NCBI GenBank assembly: GCA_963514005.1 | Contig: OY740809.1 | Span: forward strand, 20,832,001-20,896,000 | DNA length: 64,000 nt | Source: Raja brachyura | Taxonomy: Eukaryota | Reading direction: 5' to 3' | Shown here: positions 1 through 30,334 of the stretch, piece after piece | How the letters are laid out: each line of letters opens with the position of its first letter | How positions within the stretch are numbered: position 1 is the first letter of the stretch | Notes under the pieces: model-generated | What the model saw: only the letters and a program-made list of their open reading frames with translations | Database searches by the model: none | Told to the model about the DNA's origin: nothing | Translations under genes and position numbers: made by a program

Positions 1-490
1 GTTCACCAAGTTTTGTTGTATAAAACATTTTTTTAATCTGAAAATTGTTAATGATAAGGAACATTGCAATGGAGATACAGGAGCCTGCAGATACTGGAAA
101 CAGGAGCACAAAATAAACTGCTGGAGGAGATCAGTGCATTATGCAGCACCTATGGTGACAAAGGGATAATTGACATTTACTGATGGAGTCCTTGCACCTG
201 TCCAGATCTGAAATGTTGACCATGCCTTTGCCTCCACACAAACTTTGCAATCATTTGTGAGAGTTTCCAATTCTGAATTCATACTTGAGTGGGAAAGTAA
301 GTTGAAAACTTTCTTTGCTGTTGGCTGGATACAACACCATAGCTGTACTGAAACAGCTTAGTCAGGTTTGTCTTGTGCTCAAGATTCCAGTATCTGCAAG
401 CTCTTGTGTCTCCATTGCAACATTCCTCATCATTAACATTTCCTCAGATTTAAAATAGGTTTGTATCTTTACACAATGAAACTTGGATAA
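1..490. repeat. Imperfect inverted repeat (arms about 1-110 and 370-490) around a degenerate Penelope-derived core
   Basis: The reverse complement of 370-490 aligns with 1-110 (gtt.ccaagttt...aatctga..aatgttaatgat.agga...ttgcaatggaga.aca.gagc.tgcagatactggaa...gagcacaa). Confidence 0.75.
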
Positions 491-1834
491 ACATGCGGAA
501 TAAGTAACATATTACATAAATCTTTTATAATGACAAGCATTACCAATGCCAAATTAAACACCATTAACAAAACTATGGAGTCTGGTTATTGGAATAGAAT
601 TTCATATTGTGTTTTCAAGAACAGAGCCTTTACATTACAGCTAAGTCAGAGCACTTATCAATTTCTTGATGTCAAAGGAATTGGCAAGCTGGCTCTATTT
701 GTGATCATGGGATACTTTGTAAAAAGTTAGGAAGGACAATTAAGTTGGGAACATCTAGCTGAAGACAATTGGAAACTGGTTTATTGAATACATACTTTGC
801 AAGAGATGCTTGTTGGTAACCTTCCTCTGGGTAATAAATGAAACTAGTTTTGATTGACAATTTAAGTTGTTTTCCATGAACTAATTTGTGACATATTTGC
901 ATTTCCAGTAATAATTTAAATGTGAGCTATTTACAATTTTGGTGATCTTTGAACTCTTCATCCTCTCTCGTTGTGTTTTAATCTGGAAAAGTGTTTTAAA
1001 GTTAAGGTGAACACATTTCAGTTCTTCTGCCTTCTTGGCCATCCTTCCCCTTCTAATATCCACTTTTACCTGTTTAAGAAAAATCTTAGCCCCTCTGGAT
1101 TGCCTTTCTTCATTTCCCCCTGTATGTTTGGAGTACATTGAAGGATGCTTAATTAGTTTTCACTTAATTTTATTTCAATTATTCCTCTTATTTACTCATC
1201 ATGAAATTGCAGAAGTACTTTTGATCTGTTCACCTATTGATGATTCATTTCTTTCTGACTATTTCTCTCATGACCCAGGAAGAAACAAATTAATTTAATA
1301 TCATGTTCATCATCTGAAACATAAAGTTCTCATCTATAATCGTACTTAATTACAGCTGTGCAGCACATTTTCTTTAGCAGTCAATGTGACTTACCTCTGC
1401 AGTTCAATAAATTTACAGTTGAAATTCCTAGTGGAAATACTTTATCACACCTCTGCTTGGATCCATATTCTTTAGTGAAACAAATGACAAAAGATTAATC
1501 AAACTGTGTATTAAACTTGTCCACTGATAAGGGAGGGTCCCTCCAAATTGAGTCTTAAACAGTTGTTCCAAAGCAAATATAAATGTACTCTTAGATTGTA
1601 ATTGTATCTTGAGAAATGTGGCTCAAAATGTGTTGACAAATGTAAATTAGATTTCGTTATACTTTTCTCAAATGGAATGTGCAAAGTTAAGCAAGGGGTC
1701 AGGATTGATCAGTACATACCACCCACTCTTTCTCCCAGTCACCATTGCGCCCACCCTACCAATCTACCCATTGAACCTGTGGAGAATTGACTTTAATAGA
1801 TATGCCAACAATTATATTACTGTATCTCCAGGTC

Positions 1835-2015
1835 TAACAGTGGATATTTTTAAGACAGAGATAGATAGATTCTTGATTAGTGCAGGTGTCAGATGTTATG
1901 GGGAGAAGGCAGGAGAATGGGGTTAGGAGGGAGAGATAGACCAGCCGTGATTGAATGGCGGAGTTGACTTGATGGGCCGAATGGCCTAATTCTACTCCTA
2001 TCACTTATGACCTTA
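1835..2015 (+). mobile_element. CR1-type LINE 3' end
   Basis: FKTEIDRFLISAGVRCYGEKAGEWG C-terminus, then gatgggccgaatggcct...ctcct and a (tta/tga)n tail. Confidence 0.8.
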
Positions 2016-2249
2016 TGACTAACAACAACATCCCCAAAATATACATAAGGAAAATTCTGGCTTGATATTTTGGCAAATTTGGTGGTATGCATTAAGTTGA
2101 CAAATATTGAAAGTTTGGCCTGGGTAGTTGAGAACGCAGAGCTGGGCTCACTGTTGATCAGCTATGATTTTATTGAATGTTGGAGCAGGCTTGGGGCTGA
2201 GTGTCAAGCTGCTCTGAATTTGTATGCTCTTGTATGTTTTGTAGCAGTG

Positions 2250-2920
2250 TTGTAACATTTGTAAATGAACAGTTGGATGGAAAGAAAGTACTATTTCAGA
2301 CGGCATAATATGAAAAGAAATTGAGGAGGTACACTTTGGTTCAAAGAAATAGAAATGCAGAGGTTAATGAAACAATGCTCAGAGTGACCTGTGTGACCTT
2401 GTACAAGGTACAGTATGTGCAGGTTCAACCAATTAAAAGTTAAATGGTGTCCGGGCCTTTATTCTTATACACTTATCCTCTTAAAATAGAGGCACCTTGC
2501 TGTACTTCTGCATTTATGTAAATATCTGGCCTCCCTACCAAGGAAGGGATACTTGTGACAGAGGGAATGCAATGAAGGTTCACTAGACTGAATCATGTGA
2601 ATACAGGCTTGTTGTTTGAGGAGAAATTGGACACATTGGACCTGTCCCCAAATGAATGTAGAAGAATGATGGGTGAATGATTAGAAACATGCGACATTCT
2701 TATAAGGCTCGACAAGGACAATATTTTTTTCTGGCTGTGATGCCTAGAATCTAGAGTTACAGTCTCAAAATCAGAGTTTTGCCATATGAGGCAGGAGAAG
2801 AAATTTCTGCAACAAGTGAGTTATGACTGGAATTTTCTACCCAAGCAGTCTGTGGCGGCTAAGTTGCTGAATATATTAAAGATAGAGATAAATAAATTGT
2901 TGGATATTAATGAGATGTGC
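2250..2920 (+). mobile_element. Degenerate CR1 LINE ORF2 3' part
   Basis: Decayed motifs such as gagggaatgcaatgaaggttcactagactga and tggaattttctacc...ctgtgg.ggct; boundaries approximate. Confidence 0.55.
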
Positions 2921-3715
2921 AATTTGTGGGTTTAGTACTCAATAACAATATCACCAATTTTATCATTGAAGTGAATAACTGAAAGCAAGCATGCTTTATA
3001 TTAGAGTAGAAATGAGATTCATTTTAGTAAGGAAGTTGAGAATGCTTTTAAATACAAGACCTAACTTACAGCTTCTAACGAGAACAATTTAACGTAGTAC
3101 AGTTTAAATTTTTGAAGTCTCTCCATCAGTCAATTGTCAGTTAGTTTTAACAACCAAACTGGTTACAAAGCAACGCAATTATTTAACTATGAAACCAACT
3201 CTCCTATGTCTTTCAAGTAAGTTTTTTTTTCTGACATTCATTTGGTATGTCTAAGACTGCATCGGTTTTCTCAATTTGTTGGTAATCTATATTCTTGTGA
3301 CTCAGTCAGGCAGGAATATACAGCAAAAGCTTATTTCTAATGTAAGGGCAGTGTTTGAGCTGGTGGCTGACTTTAGCTGGTGGAAAGCAGAGGATTTAGT
3401 TCCCATAATCTTGGGTTGGTTCGGGAAAAATTGGTAAGACCTCTTCTTACTATTAAATATTGTCCTTGCTGTTACTGCTCGCATATGGATGATGCACAGT
3501 GAGCTTTAGAGGTAGTTGAAATTGAACCCCATGATAGGCAAAGTAATTGCCTCAACTATTTTTTCCACTTGCTGGCTGCGAAATGGCCAAACTCTGCAGA
3601 TCTATACTCGCAATGAATTGCACTTCTCAAAAGTATCAGTAATCAGAGCGATTGAAATATATCAAAACCTAATTTGTTATTCTATAATAAAGTTACTTTA
3701 TCTCCTTTATTTTAG

Positions 3716-3805
3716 GTACGGAAACATATAAATGATCTTTATGAAGATCTAAGAGAAGGACATAACTTGATCTCCCTCCTGGAAGTCCTCTCTGGGGTGA
3801 CTCTA
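3716..3805 (+). CDS. MACF1: Exon, CH1: [30 protein letters not shown]
   Basis: tttag|GTA...CTA|gtaagt, 90 nt, phase 0/0. Confidence 0.95.
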
Positions 3806-4519
3806 GTAAGTACTATTTGCATTGAGTACATGGCATATTTCTTTATATAAACTTTGATTAAATACTTCCAACAATTTTACAGCAGGAGAATGTGTTAAGT
3901 ATTACACTGAAGCATGCGATTGCCTCATATTATTATTATGGTTATTGACAGGATGCACTTGTGAAGACCATTTTTCCCTATTTAAAAAAAATGCATTTAC
4001 AATTCAACAAGAATTTATTTTTTAAATTGCTGTGAGAAGGAATTCTGTTTTTCATAACAAACATTACCTTAACTATCATGTTTCACCTCGTGTTTTCTGC
4101 TGACGGTGGGTGCTTGAAAATCATGAGATAGTTTAATGTTTTTTAGACATTCAGCCTAAAATGAGTTTGGATTGAGTAAAACATGGCAGAGAGTAGATAT
4201 AAGCCATCTGGATAATCCAATGTGTTTTCAGAACATTGCAGTCCTCTCTTGAAACACTAAACAGGATTTAATTGTTAACGCACAGTGGAGACATCTAGTG
4301 GATGAGAACCAGCACTCCTCTGATAATAATGCAGTTTAACATTTTAAGGGAAAAGAACAAAGATCGACTGAGTAAGAGTTCTAAATTGAGATGCCCAGTT
4401 TTAGAAAAAGTGGACTGGAAACAACTTCTTGTAGATAAGGAGTCTGAGGAAGGATCCTAACCCAAAACATCCACTTCCTTCCTCTCCGAGTTACTCCAGC
4501 ACTTCTTGTCTTCGGAGAT

Positions 4520-6350
4520 AAATCAGGATCAGGACATTGACACATTCTGGAAGAAGATAATGATCCAGATCAGATATGTACCCAATAAAAGACATGTAGG
4601 AACTTCCAAATCTAAATCCCCAAGGAGTCTTAAGAATATGTGAAGTAAAAAATCAAACAACAGAGAGCTCAATGCCATAATATATGAGGAGTATACAAAG
4701 TCTAGGGATGTAATTAGAAATAAATTAAGGTAGCAAAGAATTGTGCACATAAAAAATATTGGTGGGAAACAATAGAGAAATGATAGGGGAGTTATTCGGT
4801 TCTATCTTGAGATTGGGTCTCATCGATTTCTACATTTTTAAAATAAGGATAAGAAGGGATAGATCCTACTCATATATTTCTAAATAAAAAATGTAAAAAT
4901 GACCTGTGTGCAAAGGGGAAAAAAAAGTTTTTTTTTCTGAATGAACATATTGCATCAGTCTTCGTGGAGGAATGGATGATACAGATATTAACAATAGGGA
5001 GGAAGCAATGTGCGTGCATAGAAAGTACATTAAGGGGACCTGCATCTTTAAAGCTCAATTCATAACAAGACTCTGACAAAAGAAAGAGCTGATCTGAAAA
5101 GGAGCAAGGAATGGAATAATGAAGGCACTGGCTGTCATATTCCAATACACTTTACCAGAGTCATTGTGATAAAGGAGTGGAAAATAATCAAGCTAACATT
5201 TTAAAGGAGGAGCAAAGATAGATTAATATTGGGTAATTCAGCCTCTAAAGAGACACGGGTTTAATGGAGCACAATCAATGAGCACTTATTGAGGGAAGAT
5301 CTTATCTGATCCACAATTACATTTTTTGAGGATGGAATAATGAGGGTTAATAAGGGTAATTTTTTTTTTAAACAAGACATTTGATAAAGTCTTAAAGGGC
5401 AGATTGATCTGGAACATATTACAAGAGATGCAAATAACTAATAAAGTAAACAGTAAAATAATGAGCAATGTAGCGGGATTTGGAGTGCAGGTAAATGGAT
5501 CCCAGAAGATGGAAGGTAGACAAAAATGCTGGAGAAACTCAGCGGGTGAGGCAGCATCTATGGAGCGAAGGAATAGGCGACGTTTCGGGTCGAGACCCTC
5601 TCTTCAGATGATGGCAGGATAGGTAGGTTGTGATTAAGTAGACATTGGGATAATCATTGACAGAAACTAGGAATACAAGCGCTGGGATATTTTGATTGAA
5701 AGATACAGCATGGAAACAGGCTAGTTGGCTTAATGAGTCAACGCCAGCTTTCGATAATTTGTTCACTCTAGTTCGGTTATCCCACTTTCCCATGTCATGT
5801 TAGAACTGCAGTTAAGAAATGTGTTGTTATGGCCACTGCTCTCTAGAAAGATGTAATAGCACTAGAGAGACTGCAGAGGATATTTGCATGGAAGTCAGTG
5901 GGAGAATAAAAGTTTTGAAGACAGATTAATTAGACAATGCTAGTTTTCTTCAGATTTAGATTAAGAAAATTGATGGCAAAATGTTTTTTCATGTGAGACC
6001 CAGACAAAGTTAACAGCGAAGGACCTATTTCTCTCGGCAGAAGGTTGATAACTAGGGATTACTTAAACTAATTGGTGAAAAGATTAGTGAAGAAAGTAGT
6101 GGAGCCTTGAAATGTTGATGAAGACAGAAATACTTATCACATTTAAAAGGAGGTTCAGATGCAGGATCGCAACCCAGAATATCGATCATCCCTTTGCCTC
6201 TACAGATGCGGCTTCATCCACTGAGTTCTTCCAGCAGTTTAGTTTTGGTCCACTTAAAATGTCTATGGATGAACTGGGAAGTAGGACAAACCTAAATATC
6301 CAGCATGGGCCAGGCTGGGTCAAATAGTCACCTCGTGTTCCATAGAAGAT
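4520..6350 (+). mobile_element. Highly degenerate CR1 LINE ORF2, interrupted by Penelope-derived insertions (about 5512-5608 and 6155-6250)
   Basis: Remnant RT-region and 3' motifs (gacatttgataaagtc, gatgtaatagcactagagagactgcagaggatattt); boundaries approximate. Confidence 0.5.
5512..5608 (-). mobile_element. Short Penelope-derived repeat with a hammerhead-like core on the - strand
   Basis: gtagacaaaaatgctggagaaactcagcgggtgaggcagcatct...cgtttcgggtcgagaccct..cttcaga, shared with the terminus of the element at 44676-45917. Confidence 0.75.
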
Positions 6351-6960
6351 CCATGAATTAATTTAACCTATGAATTGACTATCACAGGCAGCAATAGGTC
6401 AGGAAGCAATAGAGGAGAATTGACTCATCCCAGTCGCAAATGGGAAATTCTACTGAGTCAGACAGTGACTCCAAATTCCACATTCCTCTCCAGGGGAACT
6501 ATCCTTTGTAGCATCTATCCAATCAAGCCTCAACAGGATCTTAAAATATTTCCATTCCATTCTCCTCTTCATAAACACCAGTGTCAATTTACTTCCTTGT
6601 AGGTTATCTTAGTCTTGCCTGTAATCAATTGCGTAAACTTTCTCTTGCATTTCTTCCAGAGAGATTGAAATGGAGATTGAGGAAACTTCTTCCTAAGTCC
6701 TCTTTCCTCTGACAAAGGATTTTCGACTTGAAACCTTAACTATCTTTCTTTTTTCCATAGTTACTGCCTGATCTGAGTATTTCCAGTCATTTCTGTTTTT
6801 TCAGATTTTCAGCATCTACAGCAATTAACAATTGTACATATTCAATTTTATAAATAAATTACATGCGTTGCTACAATAAAGACAGATCATTTGGATCTGT
6901 GACAGCCTTTCAAAACATCAAGATTTTCCAAAGTGCTCCCTAACCAATCAAATATTCTAT

Positions 6961-7147
6961 TATCGACACAAAAAGCTGGAGTAACTCAGCGGGACAGGCA
7001 GCATCTCTGGAGAGAAGGAATGGGTGACGTTTCTGGTCTGACCTGAAACGTCACCCATTCCTTCTCTCCAGGGATTCTGCCTGTCCCGCTGAGTTACTCC
7101 AGCTTTTTGTGTCTATGGTTTAAACCAGCATCTGCAGTTCCTTCTTA
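6961..7147. mobile_element. Hairpin-form Penelope-derived insertion with 12-bp TSD (caaatattctat)
   Basis: About 70-bp near-perfect inverted arms (6965-7032 and 7046-7113); TSD at 6949-6960 and 7148-7159. Confidence 0.85.
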
Positions 7148-7874
7148 CAAATATTCTATAATGTTGTGCTATCTCTGAGCAGAAATAGAAAATTAGAAAT
7201 TAATACGTGCTACTTACAAATCTATTGAACATACTAGTTGTTAAATGCTTCAAGATATCCCGACGTTAAAAAAAGCTCCATGTAAGTGCATTCTCCTATT
7301 CTCTTTCCAAAAGTGAAAACTGTAATCTATTTTTCATTGTCATAATATGAGGGCACTAATACTTAAATGCATCTTCATATTCCTTTTCAAGTCCAGCATA
7401 CGTATTTGATAAAATGAAAACAAGTTTTTTTTGCAGCTTCATGGATATTCTGAAATGCTCAACCTCTCTCTCGTGGTTTGTCAAGGGCAAATGGTAGAGG
7501 TTTCTTGGAAAAGTTAAAATTGTGTCTCCAATGAACGTCTGCCAGTCTTAAAGCATTCTCTTCACTGGCCATATCATAAGCATCTGTATCTGAAGCTTGT
7601 CTGTATTTACTGAGTGAGGCATTCTTCTTGTCAAGCACTGGGGACCATAAAACATTACCAATTGAAATAAATACCTGGACTATAAATTGACCCTGTATAC
7701 TTTGAATGCCTCTCGAGGACAACATTTGCTTATATATTTTATTCACTCGCAGGAATCTCTGAGGGCCTTTGAATGTTTTTTATTCATTTAATCTTTTGCT
7801 TTTATTTCACCTTTGCTTTTCCATTTCCTCCTCATTTTGCTTCTGCTATTCTCTGTTTGCTTCATGGTGATTAG

Positions 7875-7970
7875 CATAAGGAGCAGTTTGTCACGAAGAA
7901 TTTGCGCTTGGCCAGACCGCCGTCCTGCGTCTCTGAACGCTGCCAAGAGGAGGCGGATGATGTTGAGGGG
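7875..7970 (+). CDS. MACF1: Putative alternative cassette exon in CH1: HKEQFVTKNLRLARPPSCVSERCQEEADDVEG
   Basis: Long polypyrimidine tract, then ttag|CAT...GGG|gtaggt. 96 nt, phase 0/0, no stop, GC/CpG-rich relative to the intron. Same position as the plectin 3alpha/DST insert and with a similar ...LRL motif. Confidence 0.8.
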
Positions 7971-8134
7971 GTAGGTGACACAAAACACAAAAGGCATTGC
8001 AATCAATACTGTATCACTCCTAGGTAATCCATATTGTTTATTAATCCATGTTTTTTATAAATGTGAGCGTATTTTGATTACCCAGAACCTTATACAAGAT
8101 AGACTTAACAGTGGGATTTGTTCTGCAGTAAGAA

Positions 8135-8225
8135 TCTGAAGAAGGTCCCAACCCAAAACGTTACCTATCCTTATTCTCCAGAGATGCTGCCTGACCAGCT
8201 GAGATACTCCAGTACTTTGTGTCTT
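8135..8225 (+). mobile_element. Short Penelope-derived repeat (degenerate hammerhead-like core)
   Basis: tctgaagaaggtcccaacccaaaacgttacctat...gatgctgcctgacc.gctgag.tactccag. Confidence 0.7.
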
Positions 8226-11200
8226 TATTTGAATATACTTTTTAATTTTAGCTCGGTTTTGTCTCATTTCTCATGACTGATTCACCAATGCCTCATGCTG
8301 TAGCTGGAACTACTTGTAGCCGGAACCACAGGCTCCCAGTGATCATGTTTTTATTAGGAGAGTGTCCATTTTGTTCCTGAGAGGAGGTGATCTATCTCGA
8401 CACAGTCATGACTCCTCTAAATGGAGTGTAAGAGGGGGAGAAAGAGTAGCTATGCTGGAATTAGATGAAAGAGATGTGAATCCAAATTGTTGTGAAGGGA
8501 TTCTATCTTTAAAACACAGCCTCGAGGTTTAAAACATAATTAATATTTTGAATTTGGAATCTGATACTTTAACCCCATGCCTATCCTTGGTAATGTTATT
8601 ACATATAGTATTACAACAGAGCCCAGGCAATTGTTACATAATTGAAATAGCCATTGATATTTAATATTCATATTTAATATTTTAATGTGGATGTTAATTC
8701 AGAACCGAAAGCAGTTGTATGCAGCTACTGAATAGTGAGGAAATGCACAGGAATAAACCTGTCACACGTTGGTTTTGGCAAGAAATTGGTATTGATTCAG
8801 TTATACAAATATATTTATGTGGATTATCCAGTATTGATACAGTATCTTGTGGCAACAATATGCATGAAGACAGCACAACTAACTCTAGTCTTTCCTTCAT
8901 TACATTCCTTCATATATCGTTTGTTCCTTCATTTATCGTTTAGGGCATTTTGGGTTAATTATTTCCATGATTCATGTAATTGTAAATATAGTCTGGGCTA
9001 TATAACATGCACAGAGTAGATCGCAGATCATGTTATTTTTGTTTAAACATAAAATAAGGCTGTTCCAATTACTATGCAGTACATTCTTTAAACTTAAATG
9101 GAACAGTCCCAAATATTTTCCCCATTAAATTTACTCTGATTTAATTCTAATCAGTGGAAGATTTGATGACCGTTTACCACATTTTCAGCTGTGTGCTTTT
9201 GTAGTTACAATGAAGGGAACAACACGACTCGGAAAAGGTTTTTCTGTGTGCTGCCTGGGAATTTGGCACTGGTTTCAATGATGCTATTAACCCAGTGGTT
9301 GCTGAGACGTGAACTAACACTGCACATGTATTTTTTAACAAAGAACGTTCTCTTCCTAATTACTTGCTTATTAATAACCAGAGGCTGTTGTGAGGAATGA
9401 AATGGTAAGTTGGCATGAAACAAATATTGCGAGTGTTTGATGCAAGATGGATATTTTGCTGCACTCCACGTTTTGGGATATATGTTTTACATGTACATTG
9501 CCAAAGTAGTGGTTACAAGTCAGTCATAATTCAATTTATAAACTTCTTACCCTTGCATATTCATACATTTCATAATACATATTGGTTGGAAATCTGTACA
9601 TTATACAAAATAATGTGAAGATAAACTTTACCTTGCCAAACAGTGCAAGTTTTGGTTTGTCAGATTCCTGGTATGCAGTCTTCTTATCTAATTACAATAG
9701 CATTTTTAAAAACATTTGCCGTCCTTTTGATGCTCACTGATGTAAGGTACAGAAAGATATCAGTGAACTAGTGGATGGGTGCAAAAGTGACAAATGGAAT
9801 TCAGTTCTGGGGATGCGGCTAATGGGTTTGGGGAAGGCAAACAAGGTGAAGTTTTGCAGACAAATATTGTTAGACTTCCACATGTTGTATTGTAATGAGC
9901 CCTCTACATAATCCCAATAAGAAAAAAATCATAGGATGAGGACTGAGTTATGAAAGACCCGTTTTATCAAATGGAATCTCCTGGCAACTTTTTTACAATT
10001 TTTTTCTCTTTATTTTGAAAGTTATTTTCTGCTGTGATTTTTAAAAAATTTGCACTTTATTAAATGTCCCTACAAAGTCGCAATATAACCAAGTCACCTT
10101 CCCAGCGGTCAGTGTAGTGAGATCGCGGACAAAGTCTGCTGGGGAATTAGTGCAAGAAACTTTCATTCTGCCACCCCTCTGCAATAAAATAGCACAGTGC
10201 TTCGAGCCAAGCCCCCAGGGCATGTTTATCCTTCAGAGAACGAGAGATTTATGTCTGTGCACATTGCAGACATATAAGGAAATAAAAGTTTACATTCCAT
10301 TGGATAGTTTTTTTTTAATGTGTCATTTGGAATATGTATTATCCAATTGTGAGGCATTCTTAATTATGGGCATCCATTTGGCACAGAGGGTTTATAAACT
10401 ATTATCATTACTTGACTGCATATTATGTAAAACAACAAGGATTATATTTGAGATATTAACTCTAAAATGCTATTTGAAAAATAATTTACATCCAATGATT
10501 ATAATTTAATTTGAAAATTGAAGGTCTTCTTTACTACACTAAGTAATACCCTGAAAAATGAAAGTGCACAACTCAACTTTGAAGATAAGAGATATCATGT
10601 GAAAATGCAATGCTTCAGCCTTTTCAGGATTTACAGCATCCTCCACTGTATATATAGCAGGACTTGAGTTTGATTGTCGGGAAGTGTGGTTGAAGCTTTA
10701 GGTTGGAAAACCAGTGAAGCTCTAGGGTGAGAGGAAACCATGGTTGAATTGGAAGCTAGTGAAGGAATTAAATGACTGTTGGGCTCCAGGGTGACCATCT
10801 GCTGATGGCTAGATTGCAAGGCCAAATTGGGGAAAAATATGGATCGAGGAGTGCCTGTGTACCTTTTTTTCAATATAATACAGCCGCCGTGTATTCACTA
10901 TTAAGGAGCTTCATCTACCATCCAGTCCCGACACTGTCTCACGCCATTAAAATAAAACTTAGGGCAAAATTTATTGAACATATTTTGGGATGAGCAAAAG
11001 ACTGACACTATGACCTATTTTGTGATGTTGTCTTCTACACATAATGACAATTGTTACAAAACGTGTGTTAACCTGAATAATGTGAATGGGGGTCAATAAA
11101 ATTGACGGAAAGGAAGTATTCTGGCTTGTATTAATCAAAACCCAAAGCAATTTTAAAATTTGTGTTAAAGGTGCCATTAATCTTTCTCTTTTCTTTGTAG

Positions 11201-11278
11201 CCTCGTGAGAAAGGACGCATGCGATTTCACAGGTTGCAAAATGTACAGATTGCACTTGACTATTTAAAGCAACGGCAG
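11201..11278 (+). CDS. MACF1: Exon, CH1: [26 protein letters not shown]
   Basis: ctttgtag|CCT...CAG|gtatgt, 78 nt. Confidence 0.96.
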
Positions 11279-11399
11279 GTATGTAATTTTAGGTGTGCAG
11301 GCCCAGTAATTATGTAATTAGATTATCAGTCCTGAGGTACATTCAAATTCCAGCTGGAACGATATTAAACAATTTACAAATTATAAGATTTTTATTTTG

Positions 11400-11670
11400 C
11401 TGCTCACAACCCTTCTCATGTGCTGTCTGTGTGGAGTTTGAATGCTCTTCCTGTTACCGCATGGATTTCTTCTAGGTGCTCCAGTTTCCTATCACATCCC
11501 AAAGATGTGCAAGTTTGTAGGTTAATTGGCCTCCATAAATTGCCCCTGGTGTGTAAGGTGTGCATGTGTAAATGAGATAATCAAGAACTTGTGTGAATGG
11601 ATAATGAGTAGTTCACGTGGACTTGGTAAGCTAAAGGGTCTGTTTCGATGCTGCATCTCTAAACTCAACT
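11400..11670 (+). mobile_element. HE1-like V-SINE, 5' truncated
   Basis: V-domain ctgtgtggagtttg...ggtgctccagtttcct.cacatcccaaagatgtgc...ggttaattggcc, then a CR1-like tail. Confidence 0.75.
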
Positions 11671-24399: not shown

Positions 24400-25620
24400 T
24401 TGAGTTGCTACGCCGCACGGTGGTATTTGACTCGAGCTGACACGGTGTATGTCTATCAACGCAGCAATGATTCTCAATGTTGTCTTTTGTATTTCTAATC
24501 GCGGCCACAGTGTAAATAAATACTCATCACGTTTTACCCGGTGGGTTTGGTGTAGTTTCATGTGCTCTGCAGAAGGCCCCCGACCTCATTTGTGACATGC
24601 CGCAGCCGGCCGCTGCTAGTGCTGAGACTGCGGTATCGCTCAGCATTGAGTTCGCAGATGAACTGGACGTGAGTGCGTTGCACACTGACTGCTCGCTGCC
24701 TGGGCGTGGTTTGTCGCAGGTTGAGAGGATTTTATGTGTTGCTGACACAATATCAGTCGGATTCTGCCACAGCCGAGCCGGGCCGAGCCACCCGTTGTGT
24801 GTCTGTCTGTTGCCCGAAGGGGAGCTTATTTGTTGCCCCAAGTGGGTAAATGGTCGGGTTATCTCGCCCTGCCGTGGACATTGGCCATCCGGTGGGTGAG
24901 ATGCCGAGTTGAAGGATACTGCTTGTTCAAGCTACTGTACCAGTGCGCTGATGGTACTTTGTGGAGGCGCGCAGTTGCCCAGAGAGCCAAGGTGATCCTC
25001 GGCACCGTGGCCACAGCCTGGGGAGAGTGGCCACCGCTATGGTGACAGACGCTGCCTGAAGATGGCCCGCCGTGCGGAGAAGGCATTGGCGTGCGGATTC
25101 TCCCCGGCAGAGGTGCAACTTTTCCCGTCTGCTCAGCTCGATTGCGGCTGTGTGTTTTAGGCTGATTCGGGCTGCCTGCAATCTGATGCCTGCACAATGG
25201 GAACCACTCTGGGATGCGTCCGAAAGCAACGAGAGGCAGCGGGAGCGGATGGGAAACAAACCCCCCTCACGCCGCGGAGGAAAATCAAATTTAAACGCTT
25301 CAGAAGAAACAGGAAAGGAGATGGGGAGAGGGGAGAGGCGGTGGGCAAGGGGGAGCAGCCCGGTAAATCAGTGCCGCTGGAAGCTGGTGAGACGCGTCTG
25401 CCCAGCGCTGTAACTGCAGGGAAATTAACACCAGGCTCCGGCTCCGGCTCCGATCCCCGCCCCACTGCCGGAGATACCACCCGCTCTCCCAGCCCGCCAC
25501 GGGAGTTGCACAAACCGGCACGTCTCAGACATTTATCACACCTTTCTTCTCCGACAGAGAAATCAATAGATCTAAATGCCGAAGCCAGTGGCGAAGGCAC
25601 GCAGCAGGTGCTATCAGCCA
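24400..25620 (+). promoter_or_regulatory. CpG-rich island; putative internal promoter and 5' UTR of the isoform-3-type first exon
   Basis: Abrupt rise in GC and CpG density in non-repetitive sequence directly upstream of and overlapping ATG 25197. Boundaries estimated by eye. Confidence 0.65.
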
Positions 25621-26291
25621 AACCAGTTGACGAACATGCGATTACATTTGCAAAGGACATATCTTTACATGATCCAATCCCAGCACCGGGGGAGCACTCT
25701 GATCCACAAGTCAACATGAAAGGAGATTTAATTTTCCCAGTCCCAGTGTCTGGAGACGAGAACCGAACTCGAGTAAGGAATAAGATAATCCCCAATACCC
25801 CTGACGTCGCTGCCTTTGATTGTAATGACACGGAAGATGGTCTCGAAAGTCCCACGTTATCCCGGGGGACGCTCAAACGGAGCCTGCAGCTTGACTGGGA
25901 GGGGAACAACGCAAGTAGAGTTGACAAGTTGGTGAAAACTGTACATGGGGAACGCGTACATGCCAAGGACGGCCAGCCAACAGTGCCCAGGGGGAATGGC
26001 GCTCTAGGAGAGGGAGCACAGTTTATGAGACAGTCTCCCATGAAGAGGGACTTCACCGTGGAGCCACAGACCTGTCCCACTCTGTTCTCCTCGGGTTATG
26101 GCAGCAATCTGGCGTCTGCCGAAATAAATGAGAGTGAATCTGGAAGAACAAGCAGCAGAGATTTCGAGTTGTCATCCTCCATACCGGATGGAGACATTCT
26201 GTCTCTTTCAGAAAATGAATTGGGATTTTCCACTGGTAATGAATGTGATGATATTAGTTTAGGCCAGATGGGGCATCTGAGCCAGGACATG
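25197..26291 (+). CDS. MACF1: Alternative first coding exon (isoform-3/a3 type), 365 aa, MGTTLGCVRKQRE...SSGYGS...SQDM, splicing to CH2
   Basis: Strong Kozak context acaATGG; donor ATG|gttagt at 26291 is phase 0, matching the 30168 acceptor. Resembles the recalled mammalian MACF1 isoform-3 start MGNSLGCVKE...PKKRVRFKRR and its SSGYGS motif. Confidence 0.88.
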
Positions 26292-30167: not shown

Positions 30168-30334
30168 ATCTCAGAAATTTATGTGAGTGGAGAATCTGGT
30201 GACATGTCTGCTAAAGAAAAGCTGCTACTTTGGACACAGAAGTTGACTGAAGGCTATTCTGGGTTAAAGTGTTCCAATTTTACTTCCAGTTGGAGCGATG
30301 GAAAAGTATTTAATGCTATCATCCACAGATACAG
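30168..30334 (+). CDS. MACF1: Exon, CH2: [55 protein letters not shown](R)
   Basis: tttgcag|ATC...AG|gtgaat, 167 nt, phase 0/2. Confidence 0.96.

What the first reader, a model, noticed from the sequence alone, without database searches (positions are those of the whole stretch)
7875..7970. Hidden 96-nt cassette exon in the MACF1 CH1 domain, homologous to plectin exon 3alpha and the DST insert
Not in the ORF track. It has clean splice sites and preserves the frame between SGVTL and PREKG. The first 12 residues, HKEQFVTKNLRL, parallel the recalled plectin-3alpha/DST PRERD..KTLRL insert. The Cys/acidic extension resembles the longer DST form. After LRL the sequence is gccaga rather than GT, so only the long 32-aa form looks available. 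This would imply that the actin-affinity-tuning exon predates the PLEC/DST/MACF1 duplications and survives in this lineage's MACF1 (inference).
Basis: partly seen in the sequence, partly recalled or inferred. Interest (0 to 1): 0.75.

Follow-up and report, generated by a model that had tools for sequence, protein, structure and literature searches.

The report
Optional exon in MACF1 actin-binding domain
A 96-base stretch inside the gene for the cytoskeletal linker MACF1 is likely an optional exon, has counterparts at the same spot in public MACF1 records of mammals, birds, lizards and bony fish and in the sister genes dystonin and plectin, and likely retunes how the protein grips actin filaments.

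Summary
The exon is there: AG/GT-bounded, 96 nt, frame-preserving, between two MACF1 CH1 exons. Contigs of two RNA-like runs hold a 155-nt piece whose length and offsets match exactly what inclusion between exons 3716-3805 and 11201-11278 predicts. The joint rows themselves were cut from view. Homology holds: plectin 3alpha-type and DST 12-residue profiles each rank its first 12 codons 1 of 225 candidates in the host intron. It is not a relic of this lineage: 43 of 218 homologue records carry an insert here (24 MACF1, 11 DST, 8 plectin). Its tail is closer to amniote MACF1 than to DST. The Val codon that likely gives other species an internal donor is Ala (GCC) here. New lead: the plectin/DST 12-mer resembles the start of the next exon (5-6 of 12 identical), suggesting a partial tandem duplication. 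Actin tuning is inferred, not shown; the papers read credit exon 2alpha, not 3alpha, with stronger actin binding. New member of a known kind; interest 0.35.

The parts
7875..7970 (+). 96-nt cassette exon, 32 residues (P0001), phase 0/0; basic 12-residue core (net +2) and acidic 20-residue tail (net -4)
   Evidence: contig pieces in X1 and X3 against prediction
7764..7874 (+). acceptor with 109-nt AG-free, 77% pyrimidine tract holding five TGCT motifs
   Evidence: TGCT count p 0.054 against dinucleotide shuffles, so a regulatory role is not shown
7971..7976 (+). GT donor of the long form, comparatively weak
7911..7916 (+). site after LRL: GC here (Ala codon); Val, hence GT, in the extended DST, amniote MACF1 and plectin records; likely a lost internal donor
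3716..3805 (+). upstream MACF1 CH1 exon (equivalent of plectin exon 3)
11201..11278 (+). downstream MACF1 CH1 exon (equivalent of plectin exon 4); its first 12 codons are the best window match to the plectin/DST 12-mer profile

Best explanation
Window 7875-7970 is likely an optionally spliced MACF1 exon, the long form of a CH1 insert that MACF1, dystonin and plectin records share at one position, and its inclusion likely retunes (probably weakens) F-actin binding. Shown: the sequence, the position, the counterparts in all three paralogues, and contig pieces that fit inclusion. Inferred: splicing (about 0.93), common descent with plectin 3alpha and the DST insert (about 0.9), and function (about 0.55). 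Inclusion would add 32 residues to the loop that follows the LLEVLSG helix of CH1, about five residues ahead of the stretch equivalent to utrophin's actin-contact site ABD2'. That places an acidic tail beside a basic actin-facing loop while likely leaving the fold intact. A weak donor and a long pyrimidine tract would make inclusion regulated, likely neural by analogy with plectin. The short 12-residue form seen in DST, plectin and (10 residues) pig MACF1 is likely lost here because the internal GT is GC.
For: Anatomy. RNA-like runs X1 and X3 each hold a 155-nt contig with record 30-124 on 7875-7969 and 0 differences, and an upstream contig whose record 2-93 lies on 3714-3805. With k=31, inclusion predicts 155 nt, cassette start at record 30, and an upstream contig ending 1 nt past 3805; no other GT/GC donor tested gives 155. 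In the ten bins 8298-10907, depth is zero in 9 (X1) and 10 (X3) but 9-21 in all ten for X7. The skipped form exists in P0027, which differs from seven window exons at one residue. Inserts in 43 of 218 records; shuffle z 2.6-7.7 against 21 inserts; rank 1 of 225 with plectin-only and DST-only 12-mer profiles. Plectin 3alpha is 12 residues between exons 3 and 4; MACF1 shares plectin's ABD exon boundaries (PMC4914211). Utrophin ABD2' is residues 84-94 (PMC7360965).
Against: DST-only, teleost-only and pooled HMM profiles rank the exon 30, 300, 10 and 8 of 2844. The PRERD start of plectin and DST is absent here. No paper read tests 3alpha alone on actin; the 2alpha+3alpha pair was linked to microtubule binding. 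The mapping onto ABD2' rests on a dystrophin match plus a recalled numbering offset. The fold prediction failed.
Confidence: 0.6

Rival explanations
1. The exon is real and ancestral, but its main effect is on another property: microtubule or partner binding, or the closed/open balance of CH1-CH2, not the actin contact itself.
For: Plectin ABD with 2alpha+3alpha co-sedimented with microtubules at 36.5% without and 52.0% with exon 1c, above fragments lacking the pair (PMC7891324). The MACF1 ABD is closed and opened by phosphorylation (PMC5476826).
Against: The long form is net acidic (-1 to -8 in five records, -2 here), a poor fit for binding acidic tubulin tails (own knowledge). The insert lies next to an actin-contact stretch.
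Confidence: 0.25
2. Exons arose independently in the same intron of MACF1 and of DST/plectin and converged on a loop-compatible sequence.
For: MACF1 inserts lack the PRERD start, and teleost MACF1 inserts lack even LRL; identity of the window core to plectin is only 3-6 of 12.
Against: Same position and phase; same RL-then-Val boundary in amniote MACF1, DST and a plectin read-through record; short and long forms in both MACF1 and DST; mammalian MACF1 and DST share a five-residue stretch ending in LRL; rank 1 of 225.
Confidence: 0.08
3. The stretch is an unspliced intronic look-alike or a decayed exon, and the contigs come from DNA.
For: Weak donor; runs flagged 'probably DNA'; joints not displayed.
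Against: Exact 155/30/1 geometry in two samples, empty introns in those runs, open frame, and orthologues in other species.
Confidence: 0.04

Closest known systems
Orthologous MACF1 CH1 insert in public gene models (e.g. gecko KAL8220344.1 = P0113, camel KAB1269109.1 = P0108, pangolin XP_036877168.1 = P0114, flycatcher KAJ7399745.1 = P0089, pig P0102/P0103)
   Same: Same gene, same junction, 31-36 residues, LRL core, Pro-Ser/Ala-(Trp)-Cys middle in sauropsids, acidic tail; up to 17 of 32 identical (P0113).
   Different: Window has Ala instead of Val after LRL, so likely no internal donor; shorter acidic run; pig records use a 10-residue short form. These are gene predictions or annotations, some running into introns (P0108, P0114).
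Plectin exon 3alpha (12 residues, between exons 3 and 4)
   Same: Same position and phase; 12-residue core ending RL, 3-6 of 12 identical to 8 plectin records.
   Different: Plectin's exon stops after RL and starts PRERD; the window exon runs on 20 residues and starts differently. Plectin's neural restriction and its pairing with 2alpha are untested here; no 2alpha-like exon pattern was found in 1-3715.
Dystonin (DST/BPAG1) 12- and 33-35-residue CH1 insert (P0187; P0104 = camel Dystonin)
   Same: Same position; 5 of 12 identical core; long form with Cys and acidic tail; shuffle z 3.7-5.3.
   Different: DST keeps PRERD and both donors; its insert is far more conserved from fish to mammals than MACF1's.

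Membership tests
MACF1 gene (vs DST, PLEC) | ABD and first spectrin repeat closest to MACF1 | tested here: met
   P0027 (one residue off the window's seven exons) scores 542.6 bits on 4z6g vs 415 on plectin; about 83% identity to MACF1 by my count of the match line vs 67-73% to full-length DST-type and plectin records; outside the DST group in a weakly resolved CH1 tree
MACF1 CH1 long cassette (orthologue set) | In-frame insert at the CH1 exon 3/4 junction with LRL core and acidic tail | tested here: met
   (amniote profile rank 1 of 2844, E 0.022)
MACF1 CH1 long cassette (orthologue set) | Optional: both included and skipped transcripts | tested here: met
   inclusion inferred from contig geometry; skipped form in P0027 and P0028; junction reads not seen directly
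Plectin exon 3alpha | Lies between the exon 3 and exon 4 equivalents, phase 0 | tested here: met
Plectin exon 3alpha | 12-residue core similar to 3alpha | tested here: met
   rank 1 of 225 in the intron, 2 of 4217 in the window
Plectin exon 3alpha | Exon of 36 nt ending after RL, starting PRERD | tested here: not met
   96 nt, GC after LRL, different start; hence filed as a paralogue, not a member
Plectin exon 3alpha | Neural-restricted inclusion | not testable with these tools
   run tissues are not on record
Plectin exon 3alpha | Changes cytoskeletal binding of the ABD | not testable with these tools
   needs co-sedimentation; fold model unusable
Neural microexon class | 30 nt or shorter (definition as in PMC13067610) | tested here: not met
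   96 nt; the pig short form (10 codons) would meet it
Neural microexon class | UGC-rich extended pyrimidine tract upstream (motif recalled) | tested here: inconclusive
   5 TGCT vs 0-2 at 13 other acceptors, but p 0.054 against dinucleotide shuffles; TGC alone p 0.73

The most novel reading that the evidence does not exclude
The whole 3alpha class began once, before PLEC, DST and MACF1 split, as a partial tandem copy of the first 12 codons of the next exon, the lead-in to the actin-contact loop. The MACF1/DST ancestor then added an acidic tail behind an internal donor. That gives a three-state switch at the CH1 actin interface (skip, basic 12-mer, acidic 31-36-mer) that the papers searched do not describe for MACF1 or DST, and this lineage has lost the middle state by a GT-to-GC change.
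Probability: 0.35. Interest if true: 0.6.

Novelty: new member of a known kind. Interest (0 to 1): 0.35.

Why it matters
MACF1 couples microtubules to actin, and its ABD is known to be regulated (PMC5476826). The passages I retrieved from three reviews list isoforms by first exons and domains and name no CH1 cassette. Public gene models across bony vertebrates nonetheless carry one, and this window adds a divergent lineage with RNA-like support. If the exon tunes actin binding, mammalian MACF1 and dystonin have an overlooked splice switch that is simple to test in vitro. The exon itself is expected once the orthologues are seen, which keeps the score moderate.

Tried and rejected
No genome is held for the window, so its own DST and PLEC could not be examined. 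The exon peptide alone found nothing among 1.84 billion representatives (0 hits) or, with its intronic read-through, among proteins of 89-2000 residues; a short query and the length ceiling make both blanks uninformative. The look-up of sequencing runs listed no holder on record as RNA. AlphaFold2 on a bird insert-bearing CH1 (P0084, 30-row alignment) gave mean pLDDT 42.5 and was not used or searched. The CH1 tree had 1 of 21 inner branches starred and an unsettled bootstrap, so it is only consistent with the MACF1 call. Contig depths were not used as inclusion levels. A short 36-nt form (predicted contig 95 nt) is not among the rows shown, but the tables are truncated, so it is not excluded. 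The tandem-copy idea weakens when positions 1-3 and 12 are left out: the inner eight residues of plectin/DST score in the top 1.6-12% of 2775 plakin 12-mers, the window's at 43%, and DNA identity in the window is 14 of 36. Four invertebrate records (amphioxus, mosquito, two spiders) lack an insert; single records cannot show absence. The Macf1 microexon of PMC13067610 was not mapped to this exon; from recall its primers lie near the C-terminus. Paper searches for this exon in MACF1/DST returned no description in the listings or passages seen. Earlier scan findings: none. ESM Atlas gave no usable hit for the 25197 ORF.

Full report
Observation. Window 7875-7970 is 96 nt between AG and GTAGGT and translates to 32 residues without a stop (P0001). 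It lies between exons 3716-3805 and 11201-11278, both joints phase 0. Those two exons match chain positions 22-51 and 52-77 of human MACF1 structure 4z6g, so they abut in the solved isoform. After LRL the DNA reads GCCAGA. The acceptor has a 109-nt AG-free zone, one of 2 of 485 gaps that long in 3806-11200. It also has the most pyrimidine-rich 108-nt stretch of that region (77%, vs 44-67% at 13 other acceptors). The donor is canonical but weak: 3.0 on a matrix from 21 window exons, below all leave-one-out values, rank 60 of 362; the acceptor ranks 30 of 482 (several acceptors in that matrix were mis-picked, so treat it as rough).

Which gene. An unnamed assembly protein, P0027, matches seven window exons with one real difference. 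It scores 542.6 bits on MACF1 4z6g and 415 on the best plectin. It is about 83% identical to MACF1 by my count of the match line, against 67-73% for full-length DST-type and plectin records (DST assignment of unnamed records is mine, by residues). Its first exon resembles that of pig MACF1. A CH1 tree of 32 rows places it with MACF1+DST (92/99) and outside the DST group (80/96), but is poorly resolved.

Is it spliced? Four runs guessed to be RNA hold 0.23 of the sampled words of 7780-8060; the exon alone accounts for 0.26 of its 31-mers. I laid three of them (X1, X2, X3; one study, three samples) and one full-coverage run (X7) on 3600-11400. X1 and X3 each show a 155-nt contig with record 30-124 on 7875-7969 and no differences, and an upstream contig with record 2-93 on 3714-3805. 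Taking k=31 (from the tool text and recall), inclusion predicts a branch of exactly 155 nt with the cassette starting at record 30, and an upstream contig ending 1 nt past 3805. Of 13 GT/GC donors tested only 7970 gives 155, and base 7970 equals base 11200, which explains the piece ending one short. Across ten bins from 8298 to 10907, depth is zero in 9 (X1) and 10 (X3) but 9-21 in all ten for X7. The skipped form is present in P0027 and P0028. I put real optional splicing at about 0.93.

Relatives. Two searches listed the best 120 of 248 and the best 120 of 307 hits, 218 distinct records. Of these 87 have no insert, 87 fall outside the pattern (mostly intron read-through or other mis-prediction) and 44 matched an insert pattern; I dropped one (P0050, intron read-through) by eye, leaving 43: 24 MACF1-type, 11 DST, 8 plectin (paralogue assignment by flanking residues). 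MACF1 inserts occur in pig (10 residues), camel, pangolin, birds, lizards and teleosts (31-36 residues, some records cut by eye). DST has 12- and 33-35-residue forms. Plectin has 12-residue forms from camel to conger, plus one 16-residue record, likely read-through. The length and place match plectin exon 3alpha as described (12 residues, between exons 3 and 4), and MACF1 shares plectin's ABD exon boundaries (PMC4914211). Against 21 inserts the window peptide gives shuffle z of 2.6-7.7, best with two geckos (15 and 17 identities), 3.7-5.3 with DST. An HMM of 9 amniote MACF1 inserts ranks it 1 of 2844 six-frame pieces (E 0.022); DST-only ranks it 30, teleost-only 300, all-MACF1 10, all 8. Position-fixed 12-residue profiles from 8 plectin or 2 distinct DST sequences rank it 1 of 225 AG-preceded open 36-mers in the host intron and 2 of 4217 in the window. 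So the exon is a general MACF1 feature with paralogues in DST and plectin, not a relic of one lineage. Presence in all three genes in both fish and amniote records points to an origin before their split (inference; no cyclostome sequence seen).

Two donors. Every extended record of DST (10), amniote MACF1 (10) and plectin (1) has Val right after the core. All Val codons begin GT, so an internal donor is available there, and short forms end exactly there (P0102, P0187, P0210). The window has GCC; even read as GT the site scores 1.6. Only the long form is supported; a 95-nt short-form contig is not among the rows shown but is not excluded.

A lead on origin. The only window sequence that beats the exon on the plectin/DST profile is the start of the next exon, 11201. 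All 10 plectin/DST 12-mers share 5-6 of 12 residues with it, and no other 12-mer among 2775 from three plakins scores as high. This suggests a partial tandem duplication. The rival is convergence: PRE after the helix and Leu before Pro could be selected to keep the loop intact. Without those four positions the signal is modest (top 1.6-12%), and MACF1 has largely lost it (window 3 of 12, DNA 14 of 36).

Mechanism. The insert follows the LLEVLSG helix. The next exon aligns from dystrophin position 63. With a recalled offset to utrophin, its residues 6-16 correspond to ABD2' (utrophin 84-94), which contacts the actin D-loop and the neighbouring subunit (PMC7360965). The insert has a basic core (+2) and an acidic tail (-4); long forms elsewhere are net -1 to -8 and short forms +1 to +2. 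I infer that inclusion retunes, probably weakens, F-actin binding (about 0.55). The literature does not settle it: 2alpha is credited with stronger actin binding (PMC8464768), and the 2alpha+3alpha pair with better microtubule co-sedimentation (PMC7891324; PMC8391331). No passage tests 3alpha alone. The fold model failed (pLDDT 42.5).

Literature seen. Passages only, by term search: PMC8391331, PMC7891324, PMC3695321, PMC8464768, PMC13067610, PMC11219738, PMC5476826, PMC13055992, PMC7360965, PMC11058685, PMC11989829, PMC4914211, PMC4171495, PMC3352950. None was read whole and no supplements were opened; splicing-atlas tables may list the event. Fuchs et al. 1999 was seen only as cited. Eight searches aimed at this exon gave no description of a MACF1 or DST CH1 cassette; the library lacks most subscription journals.

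Verdict. This is the orthologue of an insert already present in public MACF1 gene models and a paralogue, not a member, of plectin 3alpha, since the 36-nt length test fails. New member of a known kind; interest 0.35, or 0.6 if the duplication origin and three-state switch hold (probability about 0.35).

Noticed in passing
window 11201-11236 against plectin/DST records P0171-P0210, P0187: The plectin 3alpha-type and DST 12-residue inserts share 5-6 of 12 residues with the start of the following constitutive exon, hinting at a partial tandem duplication.
   Followed up: partly
window 25197-26291 (+): A 365-codon open stretch starting Met-Gly with a Cys at position 7, with a phase-0 GT at 26291 that fits the CH2 exon acceptor at 30168; likely the alternative first exon of a CH1-less MACF1a3-type isoform. 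No ESM Atlas hit.
   Followed up: partly
P0102/P0103 (pig), P0108 (camel), P0114 (pangolin): Mammalian MACF1 records carry a 10-codon form, of microexon size, and longer readings through the Val codon; whether mammals use the long form is open.
   Followed up: no
P0043, P0060, P0065, P0066, P0069, P0077, P0109, P0116, P0117: Teleost MACF1 inserts have lost the LRL-Val boundary but keep length and acidic tail; several begin His-Lys like the window exon.
   Followed up: no
window 6962-7116 and 4474-4511, 5523-5601, 8137-8236: Copies of a high-copy interspersed repeat in the host introns, including a near-perfect 77-nt inverted pair 1 nt apart about 760 nt upstream of the cassette and further inverted pairs spanning it; an effect on splicing is untested.
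   Followed up: no
window 7780-8060 in runs X5-X10: Runs of two other organism labels hold all 22 sampled words, while X7 differs from the window by about 0.7-2% over long pieces; weak hint of constraint on the exon and its tract.
   Followed up: partly
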